The position numbers and the translations under genes were made by a program. Under the pieces are notes generated by a model. It worked only from the letters and a program-made list of their open reading frames with translations, made no database searches and was not told where the DNA came from. Of a stretch of 64,000 bases of DNA, positions 11,560 through 34,196 are shown one piece after another (position 1 is the stretch's first letter; every line of letters starts with the position of its first letter). The stretch spans positions 7,440,001-7,504,000 of the forward strand of contig OZ059895.1 of NCBI GenBank assembly GCA_964057225.1, given 5' to 3'. This DNA is from Auanema rhodensis (taxonomy: Eukaryota > Animalia > Nematoda).

Positions 11560-13153
11560 GTGGCCATAAATTCTCGGCACCCCCAAAAGTTTTCAATTTT
11601 TCTTATTTTAAAAAAAGTTTTTCTGTTTTTCACAATTATCCGAGTTTAATCTACTTCATTTAACTGTTTTGAACTTTATTCTCCAACTTCAATAGGTTTT
11701 CTCCACGTTTTAAGTCCAAAATTTTTATTAGAATGATTTATGGAGCATGAACAGATAACCAAAAAATTTTAAAATTTCAAAAAATCATAAAAAATATTTT
11801 CCGAACAAAAATAAAAAAGTTCTTCGTAAAAACAATACTTTGAACTATCAAGAAACTAAAAAAATACTTAATATCGTGTCCCATGTTCTCTAGCTTCAAT
11901 CACCGCTTTGCATCTTTGTGGCATTGATGCAACTAGTTTTTCCAGAAGTCTTCGTGGCAATTTCTTCCAGGTTTCCCTCAGGATCTTCATTTTTTCATCC
12001 GGTTTCTTGCAGTTCGTTCCTCTGACCCTCCACTTCAATATCGACCACAAATTTTCAATCGGCTTGAGGTCAGGGCTCTGTGGAGGCCAGTTCATCAGCG
12101 TCACCCCGTTACTAGCCATCCACTGTGTGTTTTGGGTCGTTATCCTGCTGATAGATGAATCCTCTACGAAATTTTGAGCGAGCGTATGGATACATTACAT
12201 TCTCCAGAATGTTTCTGTACCCATGTTGATCCATGGTTCCTTCAATTTGGTGCAAGGGACCAACTTCAGATGACGTGAAGGCTCCCCACACCATCACTGT
12301 GCCTCCACCAAACTTGGTGGTGCCAGTCGTGTATCTTCTATGGTACCTGAAGCCAGTGGGACGTCTGACTCTCCTTGCTCCACCATTCCCAGCCAACATG
12401 AACTTGCATTCATCCGTCCAGATGCATTTCTTCCATTGCTCCTGGGTCCAGTTCACGTGCTCCTTAGCGAATTCCAGACGCTTTTTGACGTTCCTCATAG
12501 AAAGTAGAGATTTGTTGGCCGAGGAGTGGGAACGTAACCCTTGTGCCAACAACCTGGTACGGATTGTCTTAGCGGAGCAAACGTTGGGCTTCATCAACTT
12601 CAGCTCTTCACGGATTTACTGAGACGTCGTGAAGGGATTAATAACAGCCAACCTTCTTATTACTCTGCCTTCTCGTTATGTGGCAGAATTTTGTCTTCCT
12701 TGATTCTGCAGTCTTCCGTCATCTCCAGAATGTCCTTTCCTGACAATATCTCCTACTGTAGACCTTGGGACACCCAGAAGACGTCCAACAGCAACTTGGG
12801 TCATGCCAGATGCATGTGCTTGTAGAACTGATTTTCTTAGATCTTCAGAAACAAAAAAACCCCTTGTCATGTTCTAAAATGATAAAGTAAGGTTTTGTCT
12901 ACAATTCAGCAAAATAATTATCAAAGTTCATGCTCCCTAACTCAAGATATAAATATGTAAATTTCCTTCCAAATATGGACGTCAGATATTTTTTCATAAC
13001 TTCCTTCCCATCGATACTTTGAGATTGAAACTGAAAATTCTAGAAGCCTGAACTACTACGAACTACATTATCCTGAAAATTACATTTTAAATTAAAAAAA
13101 AAATTTTTTTTTTCGTCGAGGCACCACCTGCCGAGAATTTATGGCCACGAGTG
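11560..13153 (-). mobile_element. Tc1-type (DD34E-family) transposon with frameshifted transposase
   Basis: TIR match GTGGCCATAAATTCTCGGCA (11560-11579) / TGCCGAGAATTTATGGCCAC (13129-13148). Right end ..GAGTG is followed by TA; the left terminal bases are missing. Transposase pieces: HTH, WTDECKF, VMVWGAF, QQDNDPKH, WPPQSPDLKPIENLW. Confidence 0.9.
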
Positions 13154-13320
13154 TACGTGCTACCCGTAGGAATTTCGAAAAAATATGCTAATTTTTCAAA
13201 TTTTTTAATTTTTTAAAAAATAATTACAAAATTTGAATATATTCAAATCTAATATTACAAAAAAATTTTTTATTTTTTTCATCTGAAAAAACTTTTTTTT
13301 ACCTATCTCAATTTTTTCTT

Positions 13321-13812
13321 TTTCGTTATGGATGTAGCACATTTTTTCTCATTTTAAAAGTGGTGTTTCTGCTCATGAAGCCCACCGAAAAATGAAAACT
13401 GTATATGGAGAATCTTCTCTAGCATACAGCACATGTAAGAGGTGGTTTGCCCGCTTCAAAACCGGCGAGATCAATCTTGCAGATCGTCAAAGACAAAAAA
13501 GCCCTTTTGTCCGTTTTCTGGAATGAAAACGGAGTTCTCTACTATGATTTTTTACCTTACGGTAAAACCATAGATGGAGAGTACTATTCTTAACAACTCA
13601 GAAGGCTCAATGCTGCCACTGAAGCTCGAGAGGAGTTCAGAAGCAGGGACGTTGTTTCACGACAACGCGCACCCTCACTGTTGTGCGAAGGCAGAACAAA
13701 CGCTCCAGGAGCTGGATTGGGAAGTTTTGAAGCATCCCCCTTATTCTCCAGACCTTGCGCTAACAGATTACCATCTGTTCAGGTCCATGGAACATAGTTT
13801 AAGAGGGGTAAG
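13321..13812 (+). pseudogene. mariner (DD34D) transposase remnant, 5' part, interrupted by the Maverick
   Basis: HTH (AHRKMKTVYGESSLAYSTCKRWFARFKTG), internal deletion, LSVFWNENG, HDNAHPH..HPPYSPDLALTDYHLFRSM; 34 residues between the last two Asp. Confidence 0.85.
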
Positions 13813-13852
13813 AGTAGAGAGCCGTGCAAAATTTACTAACCACGCCCCCAAA

Positions 13853-13967
13853 CAGCTGTCAAAAACATACTTTTGGGGGCGTCAGCTGCTAAAAACATAC
13901 TTTTGGGGCGCGTCAGCTGTCAAAAACATATTTTTGAGCGTCAGCTGTTAAAATCATATTTTAGGAT
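13853..13967 (+). repeat. Four 28-31-bp subterminal repeats, each starting with CAGCTG (mirrored in the right TIR)
   Basis: CAGCTGTCAAAAACATACTTTTGGGGGCGT and three variants. Confidence 0.9.
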
Positions 13968-14423
13968 CATGGTTCATGGATTTTCCTTTTTTAAATTTAA
14001 AAATCATGATTTAAAGCATGATTTTTTTTTTAAATCAAATTTAAATATGCTTTTAAATGTATGTATATATTTTTAATTATTTTTAAATATATTAAGTAAA
14101 AATAAAAATCTTAATTTTAAATATTTAAATTATATTTAAATTTTATATATATAAATTATATTTAAACTTTAAATATTTAAATTATATTTAAATTTTATAT
14201 ATATAAATTTTATTTAAACTTTAAATTTTATATATAAATTATATTTAAATATTTAAATATGTAAATTTGTTTTTTAAATTTTATTTATTTATTAAATTTA
14301 TTAATAATGTTTGTTTACTTGATTTGTTTATTTTTTATTGTATTGTGTTTGTATTGTTTTTATTTTAAAGAACAGTAAAATTTTTGCATGTATATCGTTT
14401 TGTTCACCGTACTTGTTATGGGT

Positions 14424-14629
14424 AATTCAATGGAACACATATCGAAGGTTAATTCGATAAGAACGATATGAAATACAAAATTCAATGGAACACATATCGA
14501 AGGTTAATTCGATAAGAACGATATGAAATACAAAATTCAATGGAACACATATCGAAGGTTAATTCGATAAGAACGATATGAAATACCAAAATTTAATGGA
14601 ACACATATCGAAAGTTAATTCGATAAGAA
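14424..14629 (+). repeat. 55/56-bp tandem repeat inside the left TIR, 4 cores
   Basis: Unit AATTCAATGGAACACATATCGAAGGTTAATTCGATAAGAACGATATGAAATACAA starts at 14424, 14479, 14534 and 14590. Confidence 0.93.
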
Positions 14630-15028
14630 TGACATTAAATTATTAATTTTTGAAATTACAAATTGTTATTAATTATATTTATTCTAACAAGTAAAGGTTT
14701 CAAATTATAATAAAAGATTAGTTTTAAACTTTATTTTACTAATATAACAATACAATAACTAAATAGAGCACACATTGAAGGTAAATACAATAAGATTAAC
14801 AAACAGTTGCGCTGACCTCAATGAAACGCATAAAGTTAATTTAATAAGAACTAATAACAAAAATTAATCCGACGGGGACAATAAAAACAGATGTATTCAA
14901 TAAGCTTATTTATTTTAAAGTTTATCGCAACTGCTAGTTTTGACAGCTGTACCCAAATCCATGTTACATAACAAATTACAATGCCAACAGCAATGTGTAG
15001 ACTGATGTATTCATTATATCAAGGTACA

Positions 15029-18000: not shown

Positions 18001-20241
18001 CTGTATGAAAGTTTACATGAAGTTGGCAACCGCCACCACTGGCTGGAACCCTGTCATACAATGTATGACATTTGCCAGTTTCTCTTTATTCCAGGCAAGT
18101 TTTTTAAAATACAAGCATTTTCAAAACTAGTATATTACAGTTGAAAATGAATCACATTAAAGAGAACCAAGTGGGTATTCTGCCCGAGACTGGTTATTAT
18201 GCCGGTCAAAAGCAGAGTATAATAGCCATAAAGTATATAAAATGGCTAGAACAAGGATTGGGCCACCCATTAATGCATAAGCTTAATGGTGGCGAATTTG
18301 CAGTGAGAGTAGATGGCCATCGCTATCTACTCGATGCTTATGACCCCGTTGCCAATCATGGCTATGAGGTGAGTAATTTGTAATAAATGTAAAAAATGCA
18401 AATTTTTGTAGATTAATGGTTGCATTTACCATGGTTGCCCCCAGTGCACCAACAAGAGCGCTATAGCACCAGGCAGAAATGGTGAAACAATGGAAGAGGT
18501 AATTGTGACATTTTTAATCATTTTAATTTTTAAAATTTAGGTTTATGATAAAACCATGAAAAGGCTTGAAGCAATTCAAAGCCAAGGCATTAGTGTTACC
18601 ACAGTGTGGGAGCACGAAATTAATGCTCAAATTTCGGCCAATGAAGAAATGGCGAAATTTATGCGTGAAACAAATGTTGTTACACGCTTGGCACCTAGAG
18701 ATGCCTTTACCGGTGGCCGCACCCAGACATATAAGCTTTTGGCACAAGCTTCGGATAGATACTCGCTCGAGTATGTGGACTTTTGTTCACTATATCCATA
18801 TGTCACAGCCTTTGATGCCTATTACCCTGTAGGTAATCCCAAAGTTATTACTGAGGGTTTCAAAAGCTTTGAGACATGTTGCCCATACAAGGGGCTAGTA
18901 AAATGTGACGTGCTTGCACCCACAAATTTGCTGTACCCTGTATTAGGCACACGTATTGGCGGTAAACTTATTTTTACAAACTGCCGCACTTGTGCAGTCA
19001 AAAGTAAAAATGTAACATGTGAGCACCAGAATGATGTAAATGCTAGAAAGCTGCATCTAACTGTGACACATGTTGAGCTCGAGTGTGCCATACAACGTGG
19101 CTATAAAGTGCTTAATGTGCATGAGGTGTGGCACTGGGAAGAATGGCAACAAGGCGGCCTGTTTAAAGAATTTGTACAAAAGTACATAAAAATTAAACAA
19201 GAGGCGTCGGGCTGGCCAAAGCCAAACATGACAGAGGAAGAAAAGGTATGTTTTAATAAAAGTATCACATTAAATAGAATTTTACAGGTGATTTATCTCC
19301 AAGAGCACGAGGAGAACACTGGTGTTGCTCTGGAGAGCAATAAAATTGAGAAGAATGCTGCCATGCGTAGCATTGCCAAACTGCAGCTAAATAGGTTTGT
19401 AAACTTTTTAAAAACAATACATTACAAATTTGCTTATAGTGTCTGGGGTAAAATGGGTCAAAGACCAGATAAAGCCCAAACCAAGATTATTGGTGTTGAG
19501 GACCCAGAAATTGGTAGGATCATTACTGATCCTGCAAGGGAACTCACTGGGTTCAAAATTGTGGATAATGTTGCGTACTGCACAACAGTACCAGAGGATT
19601 CACATTTGGCACCACCGCCTTTTACAAATGTAGCTATTGCGGCCTATACAACCGCTCATGCAAGGCTACTATTGTATAAGGCAATGGAGAAAATTGGAAA
19701 GAATTTGGTGTATACAGGTAATTTTATACTTTGTATTCAATTTAAACTTACATTATTTAGACACGGATTCTCTAATTTATCAAAGGTGCCTGGATGAGCC
19801 AGATCCAATTGAGGATATGAAGGGTGAATGGTTAGGTAAACTAACCTCTGAAATACCCGATGGTTGGTCAATGACCAAGTTTGTGTCACCAGCGGCAAAA
19901 GTTTATAGTTATAAACTTGTAAATGCAGCTGGTGATGTAAAATATGTAACAAAGGCAAAGGGAGTGGTAAGTACGAGCTTTGACTTTTCAAATAATTTTA
20001 TAATTTTCAGACGTTGGACCACACGGCAGCGTCAGTGGTAAACTTTGAAAGTATGGAGCGACTGGTTCGCGGACTCGTTATGGATGGAGAAAAATTGGTT
20101 TTAAAAACCAATACGACATTGTTAAAGAGGCAACTCGGTGCCATATCCACAATGGATATGACAAAAAGTACTAAAGTCGTAATGGATAAACTTTGTTATC
20201 TTCAAGATTATAGTACTTTACCCTACGGTTATTGTGTTTAA
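15029..20241 (+). CDS. pPolB: Protein-primed family B DNA polymerase polyprotein (14 exons, about 1369 aa)
   Basis: Phase-consistent exons 15029-15042, 15089-15145, 15192-15314, 15360-15441, 16014-17048, 17093-17266, 17312-18094, 18141-18368, 18412-18498, 18541-19245, 19288-19394, 19440-19717, 19761-19966, 20011-20241. Motifs: ExoI FYDFET, ExoII AHNGSRFD, ExoIII YCRTDV, A DFCSLYP, B KLQLNSVWGK, C YTDTDS, KAKG. The first four exons are less certain than the rest. Confidence 0.9.
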
Positions 20242-20379
20242 TATATTTGAATTTATAAATTTTTATCTTGTATATATTTGTATTTATAAAATTTTATCAT
20301 TGTACATGTATTTATTTTTAAAAATAGTTGTATTAATAAATTTTATTCTTAAATCTTTTAAAGAATTTTATTACATACA

Positions 20380-21714
20380 TTACAAACTGGTATCAATATA
20401 TGGAGCACGATTGTTGTCAATTGAAAGAATAGAGTCATACTCTGCATAAACAATTGCATATAAGCCCTCTTGCGGCGTTTGTTGACCAAATTCCAATTTC
20501 AAGGCTACATTACCTTGTCGTATAACATCAAATAACTCTGACGAATGCACAGTAGGAGAAATATCAAATACAAAAAATGTGAAACCAGCTTTATACATTG
20601 CTGGTGTAATACCATTGGATGAATCTGTACGACCAAGTCCCAAACCTTCCAGCATGTCAATATATGCTGTGGCATAGGAAGATCGCCATTCTAAATTATA
20701 AGGACGGGTAGGTATTACCCTATTGTTGAGCGTCAAGTATATATTTTTCAAATCAAACGGTTTAAAGTTGAATGGCGAATGTTTAAAAGTACCATTATAA
20801 GCGTGTGCGCCAACAAGACCTACTACAACACGTTTTGGTGTATGAGACGTGAATAATATATTATTAGGTGAATCCAAGCGGCCTCCTTCTATGAAATAAG
20901 AGCGCATTTTCACTGATGTCATGGGGTAGTGTATTCGATCCTTTGCGAGTTTATCTTCTATAGCCATAGCTAATCCAGCGTTTAGATCAAACTCTTGAAT
21001 GAGCAAATGTACATCGCTGATATCTACTTTCAAATTTGGAAACTCCTCCTTTAATGTAGTATCCTTGTTTTCATTATTCCAGCCTAGAGTGTCAATTAAA
21101 AAGTTATCACGGTTTGGATATGCAGTTAGCTCCATTTTTGAATAGTTTACAAACAGTCGCTCTTGATTAAATAGGTCGATACTGACGGGAGCAGCCATCT
21201 CACACAATATGCCATTTTTTACAAGCGCTTGACGCGTTCTAAATCCAGCACTGGATGCATTATCTATATATCTATCAGCATAATATCCTGATATGGCAAG
21301 TTTGCTCTCTTTAACATCGTTGCTATACATTAAAATATTTTCGATATATGTTTTATAGGCATGATTCACGGTAGAGTCATACACGCTAACATCGCCAATT
21401 TTCAAATGATACGAATGTATTAAACTGGCAGCAAATTGTTGACATGGTGCAAAAACAAGGTTGTCTGGTACTGGATCACCGTTTGTGGTTACAATTTTAA
21501 ATTTTACATTCAACCAACATCTTCTCAGATTGAGGAATGATTTGGAATTTTGAGCTATAACAAATTCCCATGGTCCTTGAGGAAGAAAAGTATTTTTCAA
21601 AGGGACTTGTACAGTACGAGTGGATTCAACACCTAATGCCGACGCAGGTATATCACCATAGTTGATATTAGGTAAAAGGGCTTGTGCTGATTTTGAATCT
21701 ATCAATTTAGCCAT
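20380..21714 (-). CDS. Major capsid protein (double jelly-roll), 444 aa, intronless
   Basis: Polinton MCP-like motifs: GPWEFVI, YKTYIENIL, DLFNQERL, PKRVVVGLV..AYNG..SPFNF, GFTFFVFDISP, IVYAEYDSILSID. Confidence 0.88.
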   Translation of the reverse strand: MAKLIDSKSAQALLPNINYGDIPASALGVESTRTVQVPLKNTFLPQGPWEFVIAQNSKSFLNLRRCWLNVKFKIVTTNGDPVPDNLVFAPCQQFAASLIHSYHLKIGDVSVYDSTVNHAYKTYIENILMYSNDVKESKLAISGYYADRYIDNASSAGFRTRQALVKNGILCEMAAPVSIDLFNQERLFVNYSKMELTAYPNRDNFLIDTLGWNNENKDTTLKEEFPNLKVDISDVHLLIQEFDLNAGLAMAIEDKLAKDRIHYPMTSVKMRSYFIEGGRLDSPNNILFTSHTPKRVVVGLVGAHAYNGTFKHSPFNFKPFDLKNIYLTLNNRVIPTRPYNLEWRSSYATAYIDMLEGLGLGRTDSSNGITPAMYKAGFTFFVFDISPTVHSSELFDVIRQGNVALKLEFGQQTPQEGLYAIVYAEYDSILSIDNNRAPYIDTSL

Positions 21715-22167
21715 TTAAATGTGAAACGACCGCTCACGAGTGATGCACAACCGCTTATGAGGTTTCGTGGTTTTGCGTCGTCGCCGTTTGCCCAAGCCGG
21801 TAAGATCTCGTATAGCTTGCCGGCCGGCTGTTTTAAGAGTTTCCTTGATATTATCGCCTTTCAGCACCCCATCGACAATTTCATTACCAGTTTTCAGCAA
21901 CTGTCCGCCAAGAGGTGAATTTACAACTGGACTATTGCTTACAGCACTGGATAAGGCGTTTCTTCCGGCATTGATGAGATTTTGGGCTATAGGTGATTGA
22001 ATGATGCGTGGTAGAAATGATGCCAAAGTTGCCAAAATACCACCCAAACCATGACCCCTCTGCATTCCACGTTGAAACATCATTCCGCTAAATGGGGCGC
22101 CACCCATTTGTTGATTTAAAAGTGTTGTCCATTGAATAGAGTTGACATCCAAAAGGAGGTGCGGCAT
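21715..22167 (-). CDS. Putative virion core / membrane-lytic precursor protein (150 aa from MPHLLL)
   Basis: QRGHG followed by amphipathic GLGGILATLASFLPRII; Arg/Lys-rich C-terminus; its stop abuts the MCP start (TAAATG). Confidence 0.7.
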   Translation of the reverse strand: MPHLLLDVNSIQWTTLLNQQMGGAPFSGMMFQRGMQRGHGLGGILATLASFLPRIIQSPIAQNLINAGRNALSSAVSNSPVVNSPLGGQLLKTGNEIVDGVLKGDNIKETLKTAGRQAIRDLTGLGKRRRRKTTKPHKRLCITRERSFHI

Positions 22168-22218
22168 ATCGAACCGCACGCGCGCAATACAAAAGTTACA
22201 CTAGATCATTCTACTAAA

Positions 22219-22674
22219 ATGTATTCGTCTGAAATAGTATCACTATTGCAATCTGTCCCCAGCACTCGGAAACTATTCCTCGGTGTATATAGCGCTGATA
22301 CTCTACCCAAAACGCGTCGTAAAAACTTTGCACTTGTCGTAAATACTGACACACATGATAAGCCAGGCACACATTGGCAGGTCATCTTTGTCCGTAACAA
22401 GCAAGCCTATTTTTTCTGTAGCTTGGGATATAAAATGAACAAGTACATTCAAAATTATCTGGCCAAATATAAAAAGGTAAAAATTAATACTTGCAAACCA
22501 CAACGTATAATTGAATACACTTGTGGTGGCTACGTGGTATTTGTAATACTAATGTTGTCGGCTGGTAATTCATTTGAAAGCATTTGTTCATTTTTTAAAC
22601 TATTACAAAACGATGATGTCTTTATTAAAGCGTTTATGCATAAAGTATTCGACTATAAATTGGCTACTATATAA
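22219..22674 (+). CDS. Adenain/Ulp1-clan cysteine maturation protease
   Basis: FLGVYSADTLP, VVNTD..PGTHW (catalytic His), Q..TCGGY (oxyanion Gln, catalytic Cys), ND near the C-terminus. Confidence 0.9.
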   Translation: MYSSEIVSLLQSVPSTRKLFLGVYSADTLPKTRRKNFALVVNTDTHDKPGTHWQVIFVRNKQAYFFCSLGYKMNKYIQNYLAKYKKVKINTCKPQRIIEYTCGGYVVFVILMLSAGNSFESICSFFKLLQNDDVFIKAFMHKVFDYKLATI

Positions 22675-22715
22675 GAAATTTGTCATTAATAACCTGCTAC
22701 ATTACGTGGTCAGTT

Positions 22716-22886
22716 ATGAATATTCCTTGTCACTGTGAATTATGTGTCAAATACACGTTGGAGCAATCTAAACCAGCGCCTTTATACAGGAGAATGTTGA
22801 AATGTATTTCAGTGCCATTTATTAAAGGTATAGCATTGGGATTGGGCTTTTGTACAACACTAGTCATATTATTGCTCATTATATAA
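22716..22886 (+). CDS. Small 56-aa protein with Cys cluster and C-terminal transmembrane segment
   Basis: MNIPCHCELC...PFIKGIALGLGFCTTLVILLLII*. Fills the gap between the protease and the Zn-finger gene and has the shared GTGGT-N5-ATG motif. Confidence 0.55.
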   Translation: MNIPCHCELCVKYTLEQSKPAPLYRRMLKCISVPFIKGIALGLGFCTTLVILLLII

Positions 22887-22927
22887 AAGTGGGTTGATTG
22901 CGTGTGGTCGTTTTTCATTTTCCTCTA

Positions 22928-23392
22928 ATGGAACTTTTATGTAACAAATATTGTGGTACATGCAAGGAAATATTTTCTTCAACCAAGCATTTTAGTGATC
23001 ACGTTTTGAAAAGACATGCAGGGATTCAACCCATATGTAACAATTATATCAGCAATGCTGACTTTATTCAAAAATATGGACATTTGGATGGTGTTCGTAG
23101 ACGTTTGTGCCCTCATTGTAGTGAAACTTTTGGAACAAGATTCAATTGTGAGCGTCATATTCGGCGTATTCATAATAATAATGGAACGAATGGTGAAGAT
23201 GGTGATGGAAATGATACCAGCAAACCCTTTGAAAAAGCTGAGGAGTTTGTACATTCAACCCAATCAAAAAGATGCCGCAGCAATAGTGACGGAGAACATT
23301 CACAACACGAGCCGAGCGACAAACAAAACTGCCCTAAACTATCTTTTAAACCTTCGAAAATAAAAATGTGGTATTGTATAACTGTTGAATAA
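22928..23392 (+). CDS. Two-finger C2H2 zinc-finger protein
   Basis: CGTCKEIFSSTKHFSDHVLKRH and CPHCSETFGTRFNCERHIRRIH, then a low-complexity tail. Confidence 0.75.
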   Translation: MELLCNKYCGTCKEIFSSTKHFSDHVLKRHAGIQPICNNYISNADFIQKYGHLDGVRRRLCPHCSETFGTRFNCERHIRRIHNNNGTNGEDGDGNDTSKPFEKAEEFVHSTQSKRCRSNSDGEHSQHEPSDKQNCPKLSFKPSKIKMWYCITVE

Positions 23393-23397
23393 AACGT

Positions 23398-24255
23398 TTA
23401 TTTCATATTTTTAACATGCAATGTAACAACTGTAGAACCATAATTAAATTGCATAGGACGACCAAATTCATCTAAAATTTCAATACGTATGGTATCGAGT
23501 GTTTGTCTAGTGATTGGTACATAACGAATAGGATTAAATGTTTTGGCAATCATTTTACCAAATTCAGTAGGAGGTGGTACAGGTAAACATGCAAGTAAAT
23601 TAGCTTTCACATTACCAAGAATGGAATATTCTACAATATCACAATATATATACATTGTATTAATGTTATTTGAAAAATCAATGGGACGCCTGGCTATTAT
23701 TGTATCGTTGATGTTTTTATTTTCAAAACCAAGAAAATATGCAAAATCATCACCAAGCGTTGCATTCAACAATAGTCTCTTGCTTGTTACAAACTCTATG
23801 CGCTGCAATGTTTTGTTAAACTGAAATGTGGCGTCTGCGAGCATTTCCTCCACTAGCTTAGCCTCAGCCTGGCGATTATTATACCACTTTTTTACATCTT
23901 CATCTTTATCTATTAAACTTTTTATACGTGCTTCTTCCTCAGCTCCAAGAGGCTTTGTATTGTTGGCGATAAATGATTCTCTTCCAGCGTTGATTCCGCG
24001 TATTATTTCATCACCATTTGCATAGTTGCCTTTAGGCAAGTGTAGAATAAATTTTCTATTGGAAAAACGTAGTGTATAAGATAAATCTTTTTGAACATTT
24101 AATATAGAACAAGGAAAAATGATGTCTGTCAGCCCAATGCAATATCTATTATTGCGTAGCCTTAGTGTTTCAGGTAATCTGGTAAGAAACACTGATGATG
24201 TATTACTTTTTTCAGAGTCAACTGATGATGGAAGAGTAATGTAAAAATCATCCAT
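23398..24255 (-). CDS. Minor capsid (penton, single jelly-roll) protein, 285 aa
   Basis: Polinton mCP hallmarks DFYITLPS..F..RLP..L.L, MYIYCDIVEYSILGN..NLL, RYVPI..TIRIEILDEFG, VVTLH. Confidence 0.85.
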   Translation of the reverse strand: MDDFYITLPSSVDSEKSNTSSVFLTRLPETLRLRNNRYCIGLTDIIFPCSILNVQKDLSYTLRFSNRKFILHLPKGNYANGDEIIRGINAGRESFIANNTKPLGAEEEARIKSLIDKDEDVKKWYNNRQAEAKLVEEMLADATFQFNKTLQRIEFVTSKRLLLNATLGDDFAYFLGFENKNINDTIIARRPIDFSNNINTMYIYCDIVEYSILGNVKANLLACLPVPPPTEFGKMIAKTFNPIRYVPITRQTLDTIRIEILDEFGRPMQFNYGSTVVTLHVKNMK

Positions 24256-24334
24256 GACAAACCACCACTTGATACGTGTACACTATTGCAAATGAAATCA
24301 TTTGCATTTTAGGTACATTTACGAGTGGTTGATT
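24256..24334. promoter_or_regulatory. Pseudo-symmetric divergent promoter between mCP and ATPase
   Basis: Central TGCAAATGA-aa-TCATTTGCA inverted repeat (24287-24306); GTAC and AGTGGT are mirrored toward each ATG. Confidence 0.55.
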
Positions 24335-24982
24335 ATGGTTTTCAGCTTCAAACTACCCAGTCAGACAACTGTAATAGGTGCTACCCAATGCGGTAAAACA
24401 ACCCTCATAAAGCACATATGTGAAAATACTGAAAAGTTTTTCAACGTCCCCATTGATAGAATATTCTGGTTCAGTCAATGTGGGTCATCGTCAGGTGTAC
24501 CAATAAATGATGAGCGTTTAATAATCATTCAAGGGCCTCCTGATCCTGATTTGATAAAAGAACAAAAGGGAGTAAATACTATACTAGTGCTGGATGATTT
24601 GATGAACTTTTTTTCATCGAATAAAGCAGCAAAGGAATTACTCAACAACATTTTTACAGTATGGGCTCATCACTGGAATTTGGCAGTGTTTAATCTTGTG
24701 CAAGCGGCATTTCAACTGGACAGGACCAGTCGAATCAATAGTACATATATAATACTGATGAAAAGTCATTCAGATATATTACAAATACGTAATTGTCTGC
24801 AGCAATTATTTGGGCCACGTTTCAAAAATGCTCTAGAGGCGTATGATGATGCAATGTCTACTCCCTATAGTCATTTACTGATTGACAATCATCCTTTAAC
24901 AAGTGAGAAGCAGCGTATACTATCTGATATAACAGCGGAGAACCCTATTGTTTATGTTGCCAGAAATGTGTTTAGTGTTTAA
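24335..24982 (+). CDS. A32/FtsK-HerA-type DNA packaging ATPase
   Basis: Walker A GATQCGKT, Walker B ILVLDD, HHWN..LVQ..F, RINSTYIILMK, PYSHLLID. Confidence 0.92.
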   Translation: MVFSFKLPSQTTVIGATQCGKTTLIKHICENTEKFFNVPIDRIFWFSQCGSSSGVPINDERLIIIQGPPDPDLIKEQKGVNTILVLDDLMNFFSSNKAAKELLNNIFTVWAHHWNLAVFNLVQAAFQLDRTSRINSTYIILMKSHSDILQIRNCLQQLFGPRFKNALEAYDDAMSTPYSHLLIDNHPLTSEKQRILSDITAENPIVYVARNVFSV

Positions 24983-24994
24983 AGTGCTTGTTCA

Positions 24995-25303
24995 ATGAGT
25001 GGTCGTATTTTGTCAAATTTCAACTTTTTGTCTTCTTGCGCCAAAACTCCTTGTTCTGTTTCCTCATTTTCTTTTGCACAAATTGAAATTATTGTTGAAA
25101 TTGTATTTAATATTGTGAAAAATAATAATTTTCTTTTAACTAACAAGGAATATAAAACCCTCTTGCCCATATCTTCATTATTACGTCAAATAGCTTTGAT
25201 ACGCACACCGGAAAAGGCTAAATCATTATTGGCAACGCTTTCACACAAACAATTGAAAACAATAGTTACATGTGGTATTGCCTATTTTGGTTTTAAATCA
25301 TGA
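24995..25303 (+). CDS. Small Polinton protein (102 aa; tentatively the conserved PW-type ORF)
   Basis: I.EIVFNIVKNN..LT..LRQIA pattern; ATGA overlap with the next gene. Confidence 0.65.
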   Translation: MSGRILSNFNFLSSCAKTPCSVSSFSFAQIEIIVEIVFNIVKNNNFLLTNKEYKTLLPISSLLRQIALIRTPEKAKSLLATLSHKQLKTIVTCGIAYFGFKS

Positions 25304-26016
25304 AGCTCAACCATAAATATCGACTAATTCCTGTCGACGAGGAAACAGTTAATATAGACAAGTTTGATGCAGAGCTCAAGCTTTTACGAGAAAATAGAGC
25401 TATACCCGACTATAAAAAGGCTGAACTATACGAAGACTTGATTGCTCGTCTCAAAAACTATAGAGAAAGTATAGATGCGCCCATATCAGTACAAGTGGAA
25501 AATGCTGATCCACCTCTATTGCCAGAATACAAGTTGCCAAGAAAGTATAACAATTTGTGGGAGAAATTTCCAGAGGTGCGCACAAACAAGAATAACCAAC
25601 TTGTGATTAATAATGAGGCTGTACCAAACACGAATATTACAAAAATTTTAGATTTTGTATTGGATAAAACAAAAACGGAGCCCAATGGATTTTCAGTTTT
25701 GTCAAAGTTTTTAGCCAGTAAAGGCGTACCAAGTTCTAACAAGAAACAAACTAGAAGAGAGTCGGCTGACAATGATTCAGTTGACGTTGTAACTAGAGCT
25801 GAACCGGCTGTTACAGACTTGGACTCTACTATATTACCTAGAACGCCTCGTCATCGTAAAGCTGTTATTAGATATTCACCATCACCGGTTCGTACACTCA
25901 AAAGTAAAAGGTCAAAGACTTTTGATACTGCCGCCGAATCATATTACACACCACAAGAAGGAGACTCACAGAATGGCCAAGGTCGTAAAAGGTTCTACAT
26001 TAGATTATGGAAATGA
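25300..26016 (+). CDS. Polinton protein of unknown function (238 aa; tentatively PZ-type core protein)
   Basis: YRLIPVD..D.KKAELY..L..R, LVINNEAVPNTNI; basic Ser/Pro-rich tail; terminal QNGQG-RKRFYIRLWK. Confidence 0.7.
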   Translation: MKLNHKYRLIPVDEETVNIDKFDAELKLLRENRAIPDYKKAELYEDLIARLKNYRESIDAPISVQVENADPPLLPEYKLPRKYNNLWEKFPEVRTNKNNQLVINNEAVPNTNITKILDFVLDKTKTEPNGFSVLSKFLASKGVPSSNKKQTRRESADNDSVDVVTRAEPAVTDLDSTILPRTPRHRKAVIRYSPSPVRTLKSKRSKTFDTAAESYYTPQEGDSQNGQGRKRFYIRLWK

Positions 26017-27040
26017 TATTTTGGCGAGCATTTATTACGATATAAAACACCCAGCTTCATATACATCAGCCAAGAATTTATTATCGCAAGCACGAAAACA
26101 TGGCATTTCAAAGGTACAAGTTGATGATTTTTTGCAAGATTCTGAAACTTTTACACGACATAAACCAACCAGAATGCGTATGCAGACTAGAAAGACTAGA
26201 GGATGTGGTCGATTTCTAACAGTGCAAGCAGATTTGGTTGATATGCAAAAATATAAAAAATTAAACGACGGCTATGCTTACATGTTGACCATGATTGATG
26301 TTTATACACGCATGTTATATGTTAGGCCTTTGAAAACTAAAGGTGGTATAGAGGTTGCTAGTGCATTTGAAAATTTATTCAAGAATTTTATACCAATTCA
26401 GTTGATTACTGATAATGGCACAGAGTTTTATAATAGTCATTGTGAAAAACTATTCAAAAAGTTTGCCATACTGCACGGATCTACAAGTTCACCACAAAAG
26501 GCTGCAATGGTGGAGCGAGCAAATAGAACTTTAAAAACACGCATGATGAAATATCTCTATTACAAGAATAATCATCGTTGGATTGATATCCTAGATGATT
26601 TGGTTGAAGGAATAAACAAATCTTATAACCGCTCTATAAAAATGCGGCCCATTGATGTTAAAGCAAATATATTCATTGAAGAATATGCACCAGCTGTTAA
26701 AAGCCGCTTTAAAATTGGTGATACTGTTCGCATAAGCAAAAATAGGCGTACTTTTGAAAAAAGCTACGAGTCTGGATATACAATGGAGCTGTTCACAATT
26801 GATGAGGTTGTAACCGGAAACCCAACCGTGTATAAACTTGTAGATTATAATGGTGAACGTATAAAGGGAATATTCTACGAACCTGAACTTGTCTTGGCTA
26901 CTAATAAAAGCAACAAGTACTATATAGAAAAAGTTTTAAAAGAGCGTACTCGAAGCGGTAAACGTCAAGTATTTGTAAAATGGAGTGGATATCCCGACAA
27001 CTTTAATGAATGGATAGATGCAGAAAATTTAAATGTATAA
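25973..27040 (+). CDS. Retroviral-type DDE integrase (c-integrase) with C-terminal chromodomain
   Basis: YYDIKHPASY; catalytic QADLVDM, ITDNGTEF, AMVERANRTLK; chromodomain YYIEKVLKER..VFVKWSGYPDNFNEWI. Confidence 0.95.
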   Translation: MAKVVKGSTLDYGNDILASIYYDIKHPASYTSAKNLLSQARKHGISKVQVDDFLQDSETFTRHKPTRMRMQTRKTRGCGRFLTVQADLVDMQKYKKLNDGYAYMLTMIDVYTRMLYVRPLKTKGGIEVASAFENLFKNFIPIQLITDNGTEFYNSHCEKLFKKFAILHGSTSSPQKAAMVERANRTLKTRMMKYLYYKNNHRWIDILDDLVEGINKSYNRSIKMRPIDVKANIFIEEYAPAVKSRFKIGDTVRISKNRRTFEKSYESGYTMELFTIDEVVTGNPTVYKLVDYNGERIKGIFYEPELVLATNKSNKYYIEKVLKERTRSGKRQVFVKWSGYPDNFNEWIDAENLNV

Positions 27041-27334
27041 TTTTTCAATGTTATAAACAATTGTAATTATAATAAATGATTTATTTGATATATCGCATAA
27101 TGTAACAATAAAAAACCAGCAAAATACAAACAACAATTCAACCTGGAAAAAAAAAATGTAGACTATTCAAATTTTCAAATTCTTACCAGTTGGTTGATCA
27201 TTCGTCCTCAATTGATGAGCCATTGATGGATATTCGCAAAAGCTGGAAAAAAAAATGTTACGGCTGAGAATATAAAAATGCCACATAACAAAACAAGAAT
27301 AAAACGCCAATTGTGCTATTTGTGCTTGTTGTAG

Positions 27335-27921
27335 TCAAAATGAAGGATCAAAGCGGATAAACATGTTCAGGTTGAGTGCTTCTGGACTTAGTTTAAAGTA
27401 GAATACATTCTGCTTATAACCAAAAGTCTTTATAGTAGCCTCATCTGCATATATAACAATATAGCCCATATTGTTCAACAATTGCTTGCACGTCATGGTG
27501 TTATAAGAGCGCATCTAAAAATAATTATAAAATTGAAAATAAATAAATATGCAAGCTTACATTAATAGAGAACTTTTCGGGCTTATAGTGACGAAATTCC
27601 TTCAAAAGACCCAACGCATCATTCCTTCCTCTACACTTTATACAGAGGCTGAAACAGTGATACTCGTCTATAACCTGCAATGATTCCCTACAAGTTTTGC
27701 AGAGACAAATTGGTCTCATTAATACACTCCTTGGTGGAGTGCTCTCTCTCAGAATCTCCATCTGCTTTATTGGTGAATCTAAATTAAAGATTTAATAAAT
27801 ACAAGTTAAGGTTCATACCAAAATTTGTAAAATTTGGAGCTGGTGTGGGTGGTCGTGGTACTTCAGGTTCAGGCGATTTGCGCACAACATTTGTCACATC
27901 AGCAAGTACAGCACGCTTCAT
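27335..27921 (-). CDS. Spliced Maverick accessory gene (3 exons, 166 aa): D-box, CDK sites, Cys/Zn cluster
   Basis: Exons 27921-27819, 27778-27561, 27514-27335, joined by 40- and 46-nt GT-AG introns in phase; TATAAAAG about 150 bp upstream. Protein MKRAVLADVTNVVRKSPEP..DSPIK..STPPR..CLCKTC..HCFSLCIKC..FIRFDPSF. Confidence 0.72.
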
Positions 27922-28072
27922 TTCCGCTAAAGATCCAACTTTCTAAAATATAAGGCAAACTTGCAGAGAGGAGCAGTCTATGGCGAATGGCAAAGAGTGG
28001 CAGGAGATGGTGAAACGTCGGATCCTCGGATAGTCGGCAGAGCTGAAATGTAAATGTAGCAAAATTGCCAAC

Positions 28073-28080
28073 CTTTTATA
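28073..28080 (-). promoter_or_regulatory. Candidate TATA box of the right-end gene
   Basis: TATAAAAG on the minus strand, followed by TTTCAG and TTTTAG acceptors (possible trans-splice sites) before the ATG at 27921. Confidence 0.45.
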
Positions 28081-28550
28081 CAAAGATTTTTGTAAAGTAC
28101 AACCCATTGTGTTACAATCAAGTTTGCTGATGAAATTCTTTTATTAATTAGATTTTACAGCATATTTATGCAGATATACTCATCTCATCGACAGTTGCCA
28201 GCAGTTGGCGCACTCTGAACCTGTAAACAATCTGCATATTAATTAGTTTTTACATCTCTTTAAACATTATTGTTTACCGTTTGTGCCATAAACAACAGCC
28301 AGCTCTGTAAAACATTTAGGCTTTTTAAACTTTGCTTAATAGCTCATATATTATTCATAGTATACTTTTACACCCATATTGTAGCACAAAACATATGACT
28401 GCCAACGTTTTATATGTGAAAAATATTTCATTCTTTAATATTTACCAATGATTATATTACGAAACTAAAACTTTTGAAATGTTAAAATGATTATACTATA
28501 TTTAAACCCCCACAGTGCAGTTATTACTGTTTATTAACCATCGATATGCG

Positions 28551-29549
28551 TTGAGGTCAGCGCAACTGTTTGTTAATCTTATTGTATTTACCTTCAATGT
28601 GTGCTCTATTTAGTTATTGTATTGTTATATTAGTAAAATAAAGTTTAAAACTAATCTTTTATTATAATTTGAAACCTTTACTTGTTAGAATAAATATAAT
28701 TAATAACAATTCGCAATTTCAAAAATTAATAATTTAATGTCGTTCTTATCGAATTAACCTTCGATATGTGTTCCATTAAATTTTGGTATTTCATATCGTT
28801 CTTATCGAATTAACCTTCGATATGTGTTCCATTAAATTTTGGTATTTCATATCGTTCTTATCGAATTAACTTTCGATATGTGTTCCATTGAATTACCCAT
28901 AACAAGTACGGTGAACAAAATTATCTACATGCAAAAATTTTATTGATCTTTAAAATAAAAACAATACAAACACAATACAATAAAAAATAAACAAATCAAG
29001 TAAACAAACATTATTAATAAATATAATAAAGAAATAAATAAAATTTAAAAACAAATTTATATATTTAAAATTTAAATATAATTTATATATAAAATTTAAA
29101 GTTTAAATATAATTTATATATATAAAATTTAAATATAATTTAAATAATTAAAGTTTAAATAAAATTTATATATATATAAAATTTAAATATAATTTAAATA
29201 TTTAAAATTAAGATTTTTATTTTTACTTAATATATTTAAAAATAATTGAAAATATATACATACATTTGAAAAAGCATATTTAAATTTGATTTTAAAAAAA
29301 AAAAAAATATTTAAAAAAAAAAAATCAAAAAAAAAAAAAATCATGCTTTAAATCATGACTTTTATATTTAAAAAAGGAAAATCCATGAACCATGATCCTA
29401 AAATATGATTTTAACAGCTGACGCTCAAAAATATGTTTTTGACAGCTGACGCGCCCCAAAAGTATGTTTTTAGCAGCTGACGCCCCCAAAAGTATGTTTT
29501 TGACAGCTGTTTGGGGGCGTGGTTAGTAAATTTTGCACGGCTCTCTACT
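28551..29549 (-). repeat. Maverick right terminal inverted repeat (about 999 bp; 3 cores of the 55/56-bp repeat)
   Basis: Reverse complement of 13813-14821, with scattered substitutions and indels inward of the outer ~180 bp. Confidence 0.93.
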
Positions 29550-29670
29550 GGTAAGCTTCAAAACTATAGGGGAGGTTGAAATGTTTTTAAAGTTATTTTT
29601 CAGGAATGGAATAAGAAATCTAGAGAAGAAATAAAAGAAAGTAATAGAAAGGGGGGACAATACTTTTGAG
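29550..29670 (+). pseudogene. mariner transposase remnant, 3' part
   Basis: Continues the frame broken at 13812: (RG)VSFKTIGEVE..FFRNGIRNLEKK*KKVIERG..QYF, the typical mariner C-terminus. Confidence 0.8.
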
Positions 29671-29770
29671 AATAAATGTAAATCAAAACAACAAAATATT
29701 AATATTAAAAACATCCAAATAAAGATTTAAAATTGAAAAAAAATATTTAAATATTATATTCCTTGACAAT

Positions 29771-30791
29771 ATGAAGCCTTCGCCTCTGAATCTCAACCGA
29801 AGAACAGTTGAGAAGAACATCAAGCAATACAGAGAAAGAGAAAGTATTGAACCTCTTAAAAAAACAGGAAGACCACGGACCATCAACGTTTCGAAGATGA
29901 GAAAGATCATTAAGAAGAGGATTCGGAGGAATAACGAGCTCAGTCTCAACAAATTGAGTTCAAGCCTCAACATCTCAAGAAGGACTGTTCAACGGATCGT
30001 CAAAAATAAGTTGGAGCTTCACAGTTATCGCCTCACTCGCTCACATTATCTGACTGAGAGTGCCATGAAGAACAGGCTGGAAAAAGCTAAGCTGCTTCAC
30101 GAAATCAATGAGGGCCGCTTGATCAACGTGTTACGGACGGATGAGAAAAATTTCACTGTTGAACCATGTAAAAATCCACAAAACCACCGTCAACTTTTGA
30201 AGAAGGATCAGAAGAAAAGAGGAGATGTTAAAATAGTTGGAAGAAAACTATTTTCATCGATAGAAACACGAAAATTAACGCCAAAACCTATCAAGACGAG
30301 GTTTTATCGGCTGTACTACTTCCGTGGATGCAAGAGAATTTCAGAAACAACAGCATGATTCTCCAACAGGATTGGGCTCCAGCCCATGAAGCCAAAACAA
30401 CAATTCGCTTCTGCGAAGAGCATTTTCCAGGTATCTGGAACAAGTCTTCATGGCCATCAAACTCGCCAGACCTCAATCCCATGGACTTCTCTGTTTGGTC
30501 ATGTTTAGAAGAACCCATCAGGATTAAAACATTCCGATCAGTTGATCATCTTAAACAAGAATTACTACTTTCTTGGGACAAAATTGATGAAACGTATCTG
30601 CGGGTCACGGTTGGATCAATAGAGCGTAGACTGAAAGCTTGCATCAAAGCGAAAGACTGACATTTCGAACATTTCTTATAATTTTAGTACTGTTATTATA
30701 TGTTTTAGCTGTTAATAAAATTTGGTGACAATTCGTTTAATTTTGAACTTATGATTGAATTCACTTGCGAACATACTTAAGCGCCACCCTG
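29771..30791 (+). mobile_element. maT / DD37D-type Tc1-mariner transposon, 5'-truncated and internally deleted
   Basis: GRPR, TDEKNFTVE..NPQNHR, QQDWAPAH..WPSNSPDLNPMDFSVW with 37 residues between the last two Asp; right end ..GCGCCACCCTG followed by TA. Confidence 0.87.
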
Positions 30792-32403: not shown

Positions 32404-34196
32404 GTATTCGCATGACTGTAATAAACAAAATGATAGCATAGTATCATCCGTTGCCACAATTAATAAAAATTTAGACCAATTTGTTTACTTCTAAGGTTTA
32501 ATTTATTTGAAAAAAAAAGTTTGTCAAAGTTATAAAATTCCTTTTTGGATTTAGATTATATGAAAATTGGAAAATGATTGTTTAATTTTCATAAAATTAG
32601 AAATTATTATTATCTTCAAGTAATTATTTCCTTGTATTTCTTGAACATCTTATCTCTAATGATTCTTAATGAATGATTAGACCTTTGGAACTTTGTAATA
32701 TAAAACGGAACTTGGCTACAATCGCATTTAAGATTATAAAAATATATATTTAGTGATGATAATTAAAAATTGTATACAAAGAACATGAAAAAGATGAAAA
32801 TATTCTTCATTTGTCTAACTTTATTCGTATTTAGTAAGAATTTTATTTTATTTTTTATCTTTTTTTTCTAAAATAAGAATTTAGCAAAAGCATGTCCGGT
32901 TGGTTGGGTATATGGCGATGACTCGTATTGCTATAAGGTTTTTAATTCTTTCTAAAATGTTTTATAATTGAAAATATGTTTTATTTGAGGTAATAAACAA
33001 TCATAAGAATATAAATAGAGATACAGCTTCTACATATTGTAATAACTTCGGTGGATATCTTGCCGCTCCCAAGAATGCTTTTGTCAGATAGATAAATTAT
33101 AAAATATATATTATATACATTTAATTTCAGCTTAATAATCTTATTTTGTCAATGTCAATCGACTCTAACTATGTATGGATAGGAGTCAGGTGTACTGGAT
33201 CTCTTGTGACTGATTGTGAATATGACGATGGAACTCGATTTACTAATGAATCTTATTATAATTTCTTACCAAGTAATATTGAAGATTTAAGGCTCATCAA
33301 AACAAATAATTATTTTTCAGTTGATACTCATTTGGAAAGTGATCAATGTACTATTCTAGATGCTGTTAGATTTGATGACGAACCAAATTCTGAATGGCAA
33401 AGTATACGTTGTACATCGTCAGTGCTCGCTTATGCTTGCCAAATTCCATACAAAGGTGAGAAACTCGAAATATAAATTTCTTTGAATTTTTTTTCAGTTA
33501 TACCAACATGTCCACCTGAATATTCTCAAAATGGAGATTCATGCTATAAGGTTATAAGCATGGCACAAACTTATGATGATGCTGAAGCTTTATGTTCAGC
33601 CAGCTGTGGCCATGTTGCAACTCCAAGATCAACGGCTGTAAGTCATCATTCTCTTGATTCTAAGTTCTATTATGGAAATTTCAGGAAAATGATTACATTA
33701 CGTCATTAGTTTCAAATTATTCTTATACTTCTGATTATGTACGATTAGGAATATCATATTATAACAAACAATATTATGATTCAAATACAGGTCATTCCAT
33801 CTCTTATAATAACTTCGGTAATTCAAATAAGTTCAATATGAGTTTTTTAATTCTAATCAGGTACTTATGATCCAAGTGTGGGTAATTGTGTTGAATTATC
33901 CTTAAACAGCGGAAAATGGAATTCTACTAATTGTAATAAGCTTATGAAGTCCGTATGTCAAACAGGTTTTAACGTTTTCCGGTATATAATGAAATATTTT
34001 TATTTTTAGTTCAAAAAGGATACCCATGTGTAACAACTACCCCAACTCCAACTCATATCTGTACATCTCCATTCTATTTTGAGAATAATGGAACTGTATG
34101 TTTCATGTGGTGTATGAGTTCAGTAATGCTATTCCTTCTTCAGGTTTCATCTCCTAATTATCCAAATACATATAATGGAGAAACATGTACTTATAT
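32404..34196 (+). repeat. Duplicated segment, copy B
   Basis: Matches the three blocks within 8036-9961. Confidence 0.93.

What the first reader, a model, noticed from the sequence alone, without database searches (positions are those of the whole stretch)
27335..27921. Hidden spliced Maverick gene encoding a D-box / CDK-site / zinc-cluster protein: a possible cell-cycle timer or APC/C decoy
Seen: three exons joined by phase-correct 40- and 46-nt introns give 166 aa; the ORF track shows only the middle exon. The protein starts MK-RAVLADVTN, an exact RxxLxxxxN destruction box with the acidic/hydrophobic pattern of mitotic cyclins. It then has SP/TP sites, including two full CDK consensus sites (SPIK, TPPR), and CxCxxC..HC..LCxxC. 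Established: D-boxes are read by APC/C-Cdc20/Cdh1, and adjacent CDK phosphorylation can tune this; the D-box is not part of the Polinton core gene set. Inference: the element couples its activation to the host cell cycle, either as a regulator destroyed at mitotic exit or as a pseudo-substrate inhibitor of APC/C. Its terminal, inward-facing, spliced position recalls adenovirus early regulators (E1A/E4).
Basis: partly seen in the sequence, partly recalled or inferred. Interest (0 to 1): 0.88.

Follow-up and report, generated by a model that had tools for sequence, protein, structure and literature searches.

The report
Maverick gene with D-box, splice-truncated
A virus-like Maverick transposon in an animal genome transcribes and splices a small gene with no detected relatives, whose predicted protein starts with a textbook cell-cycle destruction signal that likely times its breakdown, but an extra splice seen in RNA would cut the protein to a 66-residue stub holding little more than that signal.

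Summary
The gene is real. It lies between the integrase and the right terminal repeat of a 15.7-kb Maverick with a 6-bp target duplication. RNA contigs show both proposed introns. They also show a third, unforeseen 43-nt GT-AG intron inside the 'middle exon'. It is joined out in 2 of 4 runs, probably in a third, and a contig of the fourth runs unspliced into it. Removing it shifts the frame, deletes three of the seven Cys/His ligands and predicts a 66-aa product. The 166-aa form needs this intron retained and was not seen end to end. The intron has exon-like GC and the downstream frame stays open (shuffle p about 0.002), so the long frame is genuine coding sequence with an exitron. The D-box fits 5 of 6 positions of the published consensus (0.2% of shuffles; about 3% expected element-wide) in a proline-rich N-terminus with nearby lysines. 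No relative or fold match was found, so conservation is untested. Most likely an accessory regulator with an ordinary APC/C degron whose output is lowered by splicing. A chance motif is nearly as likely; a decoy is less likely.

The parts
13807..13812 (+). left target-site duplication GGTAAG
13813..14821 (.). left terminal inverted repeat of the Maverick
   Evidence: I1-I3: 96-99% in ungapped blocks; 88% over 1057 columns with gaps
25973..27040 (+). integrase with chromodomain, tail to tail with the gene
   Evidence: rve, Chromo above cut-off
27080..27085 (-). candidate poly(A) signal AATAAA; the RNA contig reaches 27097
27143..27186 (-). 44-nt intron in the 3' UTR
   Evidence: (X1 joint)
27335..27514 (-). 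exon 3 coding part, 59 codons plus stop of the 166-aa frame; predicted small alpha/beta unit
   Evidence: best model pLDDT 81, other four 53-64
27515..27560 (-). intron 2, 46 nt, AT-rich
   Evidence: X1, X2 joints
27561..27648 (-). exon 2b; holds the stop of the 66-aa form (ends 27638) and, in the long frame, the second CxxC
27649..27691 (-).
27692..27778 (-). exon 2a with CDK consensus sites SPIK and TPPR and the first two Cys
27779..27818 (-). intron 1, 40 nt, AT-rich
   Evidence: X1, X3, X4 joints
27819..27921 (-). coding part of exon 1; the ATG at 27921 is the only ATG between 28100 and 27919
27889..27915 (-). D-box-like motif, residues 3-11 (R3, L6, D8, V9, N11)
27922..28036 (-). 5' UTR covered by RNA contigs
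   Evidence: contig ends 27986, 28020, 28036
28074..28080 (-). TATA-like TATAAAA about 45 nt upstream of the furthest contig end (promoter inferred)
28551..29549 (.). right terminal inverted repeat
29550..29555 (+). right target-site duplication GGTAAG

Best explanation
This is a transcribed, spliced accessory gene in the variable slot between the integrase and the terminal repeat of a Maverick, predicted to give two products: a 166-aa protein (likely disordered D-box/CDK-site tail, likely zinc-binding middle, small folded C-terminus) and, when an internal 43-nt exitron is spliced out, a 66-aa stub. The D-box most likely works as an ordinary degron: APC/C with Cdc20 or Cdh1 would ubiquitylate the nearby lysines and clear the long protein from late mitosis through G1, confining a regulator of the element to S/G2 of cycling cells, and CDK sites would tune this. 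Exitron splicing likely acts as a second brake that lowers output of the long protein. Shown: gene, transcript, four introns, motif, open long frame. Inferred: translation of either form, zinc binding, APC/C recognition, a regulatory role, and any control of the splice choice.
For: RNA joints. D-box consensus RxxLx[D/E][hydrophobic]xN[N/S] (PMC5717348 passage) is met at 5 of 6 specified positions. RxxLx[DE][ILVMF]xN arose in 0.19% of 200,000 shuffles of the protein, and two or more full CDK sites in 2.0%. 0 of 12 other ORFs of the element hold even RxxLx[DE][ILVMF]. The motif sits at residues 3-11 of a region with 11 Pro in 58 residues, with Lys at 2, 15 and 39. The long frame is real: the 265 nt after the exitron are stop-free in one frame only (0, against 9 and 7 stops), which happened in 0.2% of 20,000 shuffles in any frame. 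Exitron GC is 16 of 39 nt against 19 of 118 in the three other RNA-seen introns (p=0.003) and matches the exons (p=0.87).
Against: No relative in any search, so no conservation test. Across about 3,300 residues of element protein the full pattern is expected with probability about 0.03, the minimal RxxLxxxxN with about 0.67, and first-stage readers scan many windows for many motifs. P3 is branched (Val) and P10 is Val, not N/S. The long isoform was never seen whole; its only trace is 29 nt in one contig, which could be partly spliced precursor. The exitron itself is stop-free in 43% of shuffles, so its open frame alone says little. The RNA has differences from this copy in the 3' UTR and may come from a sister copy.
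Confidence: 0.4

Rival explanations
1. The D-box is a chance or unused string in a fast-evolving orphan accessory gene, and the 43-nt intron is a cryptic splice (both its ends are made by Cys codons, TGT) that reflects relaxed selection or a recent move into a host whose spliceosome reads the sequence differently; the 66-aa form is noise or a decay substrate.
For: Both splice sites overlap TGT codons and the acceptor is TTTCAG. No relatives were found. Nematode Mavericks move between genera and their cargo slot is poorly conserved (bioRxiv 10.1101/2022.07.12.499685 section 11). Software finds D-boxes in many unrelated viral proteins (PMC7307157 passage).
Against: The match covers P1, P4, P6, P7 and P9 of a published consensus at the extreme N-terminus (0.03% expected within a 30-residue N-terminus), together with CDK sites in the same Pro-rich tail. 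The element looks young (intact target duplication, 96-99% terminal repeat blocks).
Confidence: 0.33
2. The gene is a captured piece of a host cell-cycle gene whose D-box and CDK sites came along with it; they may still work biochemically but serve no purpose for the element.
For: It sits in the slot where intron-bearing cargo taken from hosts was described. The tail resembles N-terminal degron regions of cyclins and securins (recalled, not tested).
Against: No host-like relative in Pfam, PDB sequences, 1.84 billion representatives or word searches, though these collections are thin in animal proteins. Introns do not mark capture here: the element's own polymerase region has the same kind of short intron. 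The only sequence echo, not significant, is to the element's own Cys-rich stretch upstream of the polymerase domains (E=0.35).
Confidence: 0.15
3. APC/C decoy: the product, above all the 66-aa splice form that keeps only the D-box and CDK sites, competes for Cdc20/Cdh1 and delays destruction of cyclins and other substrates, holding cells in a state that favours the element's DNA replication.
For: The best-supported splice form keeps exactly the degron tail. Several viruses target APC/C (UL21a, UL97, PACR, apoptin, Tax; passages). The long form has a D-box followed by a Cys-rich region, the order seen in Emi1, and a loose ABBA-like string at 126-131.
Against: Known pseudo-substrate inhibitors use several degrons or an extra inhibitory module. 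There is no KEN and no IR/LR tail. The ABBA-like string misses the Phe of Fx[ILV][FY]x[DE], arises in 15% of shuffles under my looser recalled pattern and lies in a predicted strand. Lysines flank the D-box, as in a substrate. Contig depth is only 3-7, and the early stop with downstream introns makes the short mRNA a likely decay target (inference).
Confidence: 0.12

Closest known systems
Intron-bearing cargo genes of nematode Mavericks (wasp/wosp proteases, krma kinases; bioRxiv 10.1101/2022.07.12.499685, passages and section 11 read)
   Same: Intron-bearing gene between the terminal repeat and the integrase.
   Different: Not a protease or kinase; no family match; the slot is about 1.5 kb, not 2-5 kb. 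That paper detected no transcription of Maverick genes, whereas this gene is in RNA contigs. No fusogen-sized ORF in this element (largest 444 aa).
Oncoid genes of adintoviruses/Polintons (PMC8502044, passages read)
   Same: Small accessory protein that pairs a short linear motif for the cell-cycle machinery with paired CxxC.
   Different: Oncoids are defined by LxCxE/CK2 (Rb binding) and usually lie upstream of PolB. Here LxCxE is absent, the motif is an APC/C degron, and the gene lies behind the integrase.
APC/C substrates with an N-terminal D-box (cyclin B, securin) and pseudo-substrate inhibitors (Emi1, Acm1, BubR1) (PMC5717348, passages read)
   Same: RxxLx[DE][hydrophobic]xN in a Pro-rich tail with nearby Lys and CDK sites; D-box before a Cys-rich region, as in Emi1.
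   Different: No KEN, no strict ABBA, no LR tail; no sequence or fold similarity to these proteins was found; encoded by a mobile element.
P-element third-intron switch (PMC7776569, passages read) and exitrons (PMC4484396, abstract read)
   Same: One alternatively used intron in a transposon gene chooses between a full-length and a truncated product; the intron has exon-like features.
   Different: Polarity is reversed: here splicing truncates and retention gives the long form. It is an accessory gene, not the transposase, and regulation is not shown.
CERV of the C. elegans retrotransposon Cer1 (PMC10309623, passages read)
   Same: Spliced accessory gene of a nematode mobile element, with a Cys cluster and phosphorylation control.
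   Different: Different element class, much larger protein (517 aa), 'D-box' does not occur in that paper; no homology tested beyond the general searches.

Membership tests
Maverick/Polinton element | Terminal inverted repeats and 6-bp target-site duplication | tested here: met
Maverick/Polinton element | Protein-primed PolB and retroviral-like integrase | tested here: met
   DNA_pol_B_2 twice and rve above curated cut-offs
Maverick/Polinton element | Protease, packaging ATPase, capsid proteins | tested here: inconclusive
   Peptidase_C5 and ATPase hits below cut-off; the 444-aa ORF has no Pfam hit (capsid by size and recall), with three 27-33% relatives in metagenome contigs
Canonical APC/C D-box | RxxLx[D/E][hydrophobic]xN core | tested here: met
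   residues 3-11
Canonical APC/C D-box | N/S at P10 and small unbranched residue at P3 | tested here: not met
   Val at both; these are preferences, not absolutes
Canonical APC/C D-box | Accessible disordered context with nearby lysines (criterion recalled) | tested here: inconclusive
   11 Pro in residues 1-58, Lys 2/15/39; residues 36-53 have pLDDT under 50 in a weak single-sequence model; exon 1 was not modelled
Canonical APC/C D-box | Conservation in homologues | tested here: inconclusive
   no homologue found
Canonical APC/C D-box | Binding to Cdc20/Cdh1 and APC/C-dependent turnover | not testable with these tools
   no animal Cdc20/Cdh1 sequence was available for complex prediction; bench test needed
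APC/C pseudo-substrate inhibitors (Acm1, BubR1, Emi1) | Further degrons or inhibitory tail (KEN, strict ABBA, LR/IR tail) | tested here: not met
   no KEN, no tail; only a loose ABBA-like string lacking the Phe
APC/C pseudo-substrate inhibitors (Acm1, BubR1, Emi1) | Emi1-type zinc-binding region fold | tested here: inconclusive
   exon 2 model pLDDT 58; best Z 3.1, no Foldseek hit below E 4
Oncoid / E1A-like | LxCxE Rb-binding motif | tested here: not met
   none
Oncoid / E1A-like | Paired CxxC | tested here: met
   CxxC at 61 and 80 in the long form only
Exitron | Canonical intron inside a coding exon, exon-like composition, open when retained | tested here: met
Exitron | Both retained and spliced mature mRNAs exist | tested here: inconclusive
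   spliced in X1 and X2 (probably X4); retained form only as 29 nt in X3

The most novel reading that the evidence does not exclude
A Maverick uses one exitron as a switch between a zinc-binding regulator that APC/C destroys each cell cycle and a 66-aa D-box-only micro-protein that competes for Cdc20/Cdh1, so that a virus-like transposon both reads and pushes the host's mitotic-exit clock through direct degron mimicry.
Probability: 0.1. Interest if true: 0.87.

Novelty: new variant of a known kind. Interest (0 to 1): 0.52.

Why it matters
What wakes integrated Mavericks is an open question, and their accessory genes are mostly unannotated. A working D-box would give a direct, testable link between a Maverick and the host cell-cycle clock, by a motif class other than the LxCxE of Oncoids. 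My searches for 'Polinton' with 'destruction box' (0 papers), Maverick/Polinton with 'anaphase-promoting' (1 of the 25 listed papers held that term, a fungal genome paper) and transposon with 'destruction box' (4 unrelated papers) found no such report in the held library. The RNA also shows that a Maverick gene is expressed and that an exitron decides its product, which a sequence-only gene model misses.

Tried and rejected
Relatives of the gene: word searches with exon 2 (longer; near) and with exon 1 read into intron 1 (longer) gave none. phmmer of exon 2 against 1.84 billion representatives gave 1 hit, P0001, a six-fold tandem repeat whose score is summed over repeats; rejected. Exon 3 was not run through these large searches. 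Exact look-up: 0 of 10 sequences present. Locus scans with exon 2 in viral and prokaryote genome contigs, and with the integrase, the 444-aa ORF or its alignment in viral contigs, gave none. Three metagenome contigs with relatives of the 444-aa ORF are 2-6 kb and hold no relative of the gene. Pfam 0 of 3 exons; PDB sequences no hit under E 0.1; Atlas no usable hit. Folds: exon 2 best Z 3.1, viral E above 4; exon 3 no Z of 2 or more, Foldseek E 1.5 or worse. My recalled idea that exon 3 is the wing of a winged-helix domain is unsupported: such proteins appear only among insignificant rows, and the domain is split across exons in these models. Likeness of the Cys spacing to the ORF at 16107-17057 is not significant (E=0.35). 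Nearby alternative acceptors for intron 1 would also reach the long frame with the exitron removed, but all RNA joints use 27778. No whole genome is held, so sister copies could not be compared. X5, the only run of a second study, has a 0.06 share and covers only 27233-27381, with no junction. Lack of contig cover over other genes of the element is not evidence of silence. A six-term search of the supplement of PMC10748475 found none of five short sequence strings from this element. Supplements of the Widen preprint were not seen and may list related cargo. Host exons scanned (71 of 101 long frames) did not fix the phylum; 'nematode' is inferred from 40-46-nt introns and TTT(C/T)AG acceptors (recalled features).

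Full report
Setting. The window holds a 15.7-kb element from 13813 to 29549 with terminal inverted repeats of about 1 kb and the duplication GGTAAG on both sides. Pfam places PolB domains at 17393-19797 and an integrase with chromodomain at 25973-27040 above cut-off, and a protease and an ATPase below cut-off. It is a Maverick/Polinton. The gene in question lies on the minus strand between the integrase and the right repeat. A preprint on nematode Mavericks describes this slot as a variable region with intron-bearing cargo (10.1101/2022.07.12.499685, section 11). The host is probably a nematode, inferred from intron size and acceptor sequence; no call fixed it.

The observation. Five runs hold the region, four from one study. 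The 40-nt intron is a joint in X1, X3 and X4 and a loose end in X2; the 46-nt intron is a joint in X1 and X2. The runs are only guessed to be RNA on record, but GT-AG joints show that they are. Contigs extend upstream to 28036, past the only ATG, about 45 nt below a TATA-like box, and downstream to 27097, near an AATAAA. So a spliced transcript including exon 1 exists, and the first refutation test is passed.

The same contigs skip 43 nt inside the middle exon, 27691-27649, with GT and TTTCAG ends. One X1 contig carries all three joints, X2 carries this one and the 46-nt one, and an 8-letter loose end in X4 fits it. The skip shifts the frame, and the product is predicted to end after 66 residues. 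It removes codons 64-78, including C64, H75 and C76, and puts C80 and C83 out of frame. The only trace of retention is an X3 contig, spliced at intron 1, that runs 29 nt into this intron. That is under the tool's 31-letter rule and could be a partly processed precursor. Contigs drop rare variants and do not measure levels, so the ratio of the forms is unknown. A further intron lies in the 3' UTR (X1).

Which form is the gene? Three results favour the long frame as genuine coding sequence. The 265 nt after the new intron have no stop in one frame against 9 and 7 in the others, which occurred in 0.2% of 20,000 dinucleotide shuffles in any frame. The new intron has 16 G+C in 39 inner bases against 19 in 118 for the three other RNA-seen introns (p=0.003) and is indistinguishable from the exons (p=0.87). 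Both its ends overlap Cys codons. Against this, its own open frame is weak evidence (43% of shuffles). It behaves as an exitron in the sense of PMC4484396 (abstract read). Whether its use is regulated or cryptic cannot be told from one copy.

The D-box. A review gives the consensus RxxLx[D/E][hydrophobic]xN[N/S] (PMC5717348, passages). Residues 3-12 meet R, L, D, V and N, miss the last position, and have a branched residue at P3. In 200,000 shuffles of the 166-aa product the minimal RxxLxxxxN arose in 6.4%, the full pattern in 0.19%, five or more SP/TP in 1.2% and two or more full CDK sites in 2.0%. For about 3,300 residues, the size of the element's proteins together, the full pattern is expected with probability 0.03. 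None of 12 other ORFs of the element has even the shorter bipartite pattern. The motif lies in a Pro-rich N-terminus with Lys at 2, 15 and 39. This is more than chance usually gives for one protein, but not beyond what a genome-wide hunt for many motifs would turn up. There is no KEN, no LxCxE and no IR/LR tail, and an ABBA-like string at 126-131 lacks the consensus Phe and is common in shuffles under a looser pattern (15%).

Relatives and folds. No relative was found by word search, by phmmer of exon 2 over 1.84 billion representatives (the one hit is a tandem-repeat artefact), by locus scans, by Pfam, PDB sequences or the Atlas. These collections are poor in animal genomes and each search used a single exon, so this is weak evidence of uniqueness. 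Single-sequence models gave pLDDT 58 for exon 2 and 81 for the best of five models of exon 3; no fold search found a match. The conservation test that would decide the D-box could not be run.

Mechanism. I commit to the degron reading at 0.40. The long product would be a small zinc-binding regulator of the element, cleared by APC/C from late mitosis through G1, with exitron splicing as a second brake that yields a stub or a decay substrate. Shown: gene, transcript, introns, motif, open frame. Inferred: everything about protein function. A chance or unused motif with cryptic splicing gets 0.33, a captured host fragment 0.15 and a decoy 0.12. The decoy is the boldest reading because the best-supported splice form keeps exactly the degron tail. 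But known pseudo-substrate inhibitors carry several degrons or an added inhibitory module, and the viral APC/C modulators in the passages I read act by subunit degradation, Cdh1 phosphorylation, APC11 mimicry or binding to Cdc20 or APC1 (PMC7307157; PMC6252338).

Comparison. It is a Maverick accessory gene in the known cargo slot. It works like an Oncoid in design, a short cell-cycle motif beside paired CxxC (PMC8502044 passages), but fails the LxCxE test and is not a member. The splice choice recalls the P-element third intron with reversed polarity (PMC7776569 passages). CERV of Cer1 is a precedent for a spliced, Cys-rich, phosphorylated accessory protein of a nematode mobile element (PMC10309623 passages). 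Of PMC10748475 I read one section, part 2 of the text, passages and a six-term supplement search; it lists uncharacterized ORFs without describing them. Searches for a D-box in Polintons or transposons found nothing relevant. Earlier scan notes report other spliced accessory genes and intron-split core genes in Mavericks of other genomes; these are unchecked leads, and they make splicing as such unremarkable.

Verdict. Observation partly confirmed, interpretation partly supported. A real, expressed, orphan Maverick gene with a strong but unvalidated D-box and an unexpected truncating exitron. New variant of a known kind; interest 0.52.

Noticed in passing
window 15030-15470 (+): A second small inward-facing gene at the left end, with predicted AT-rich introns at 15046-15088, 15146-15191 and 15315-15359. 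One exon encodes a hydrophobic-then-acidic stretch that looks like a SUMO-interacting motif (recalled pattern) and an SP site. No RNA joint was seen there.
   Followed up: partly
window 18370-18411 and 18500-18541 (+): The polymerase region is split into several ORFs, with GT-AG intron-like gaps of about 42 nt. An X1 contig with four base differences has loose ends at both gaps, suggesting a spliced transcript from a sister copy.
   Followed up: partly
window 13813-29549: No fusogen-sized ORF (largest 444 aa), although a fusogen (PC1/MFUS-1) is described as typical of nematode Polintons; a spliced one was not looked for.
   Followed up: no
window 22928-23392 (+): C2H2 zinc-finger-like ORF between protease and the 285-aa ORF (Pfam hits below cut-off), covered by contigs of X1, X2 and X3.
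   Followed up: no
window 16107-17057 (+): The ORF upstream of the PolB domains ends in a Cys-rich stretch whose spacing resembles the Cys cluster of the gene studied; the pairwise match is not significant.
   Followed up: partly
window 11872-13951 and 29723-30660; 8036-9961 and 32404-34196: The Maverick is flanked by Tc1/mariner-type transposase pieces on both sides, further out by a near-identical direct duplication of about 2 kb, and an ISXO2-like transposase frame lies at 10799-11188: nested insertions.
   Followed up: no
window 14424-14646 and 28732-28899: The terminal repeats hold 55-56-nt tandem units and an AT-rich low-complexity block.
   Followed up: no
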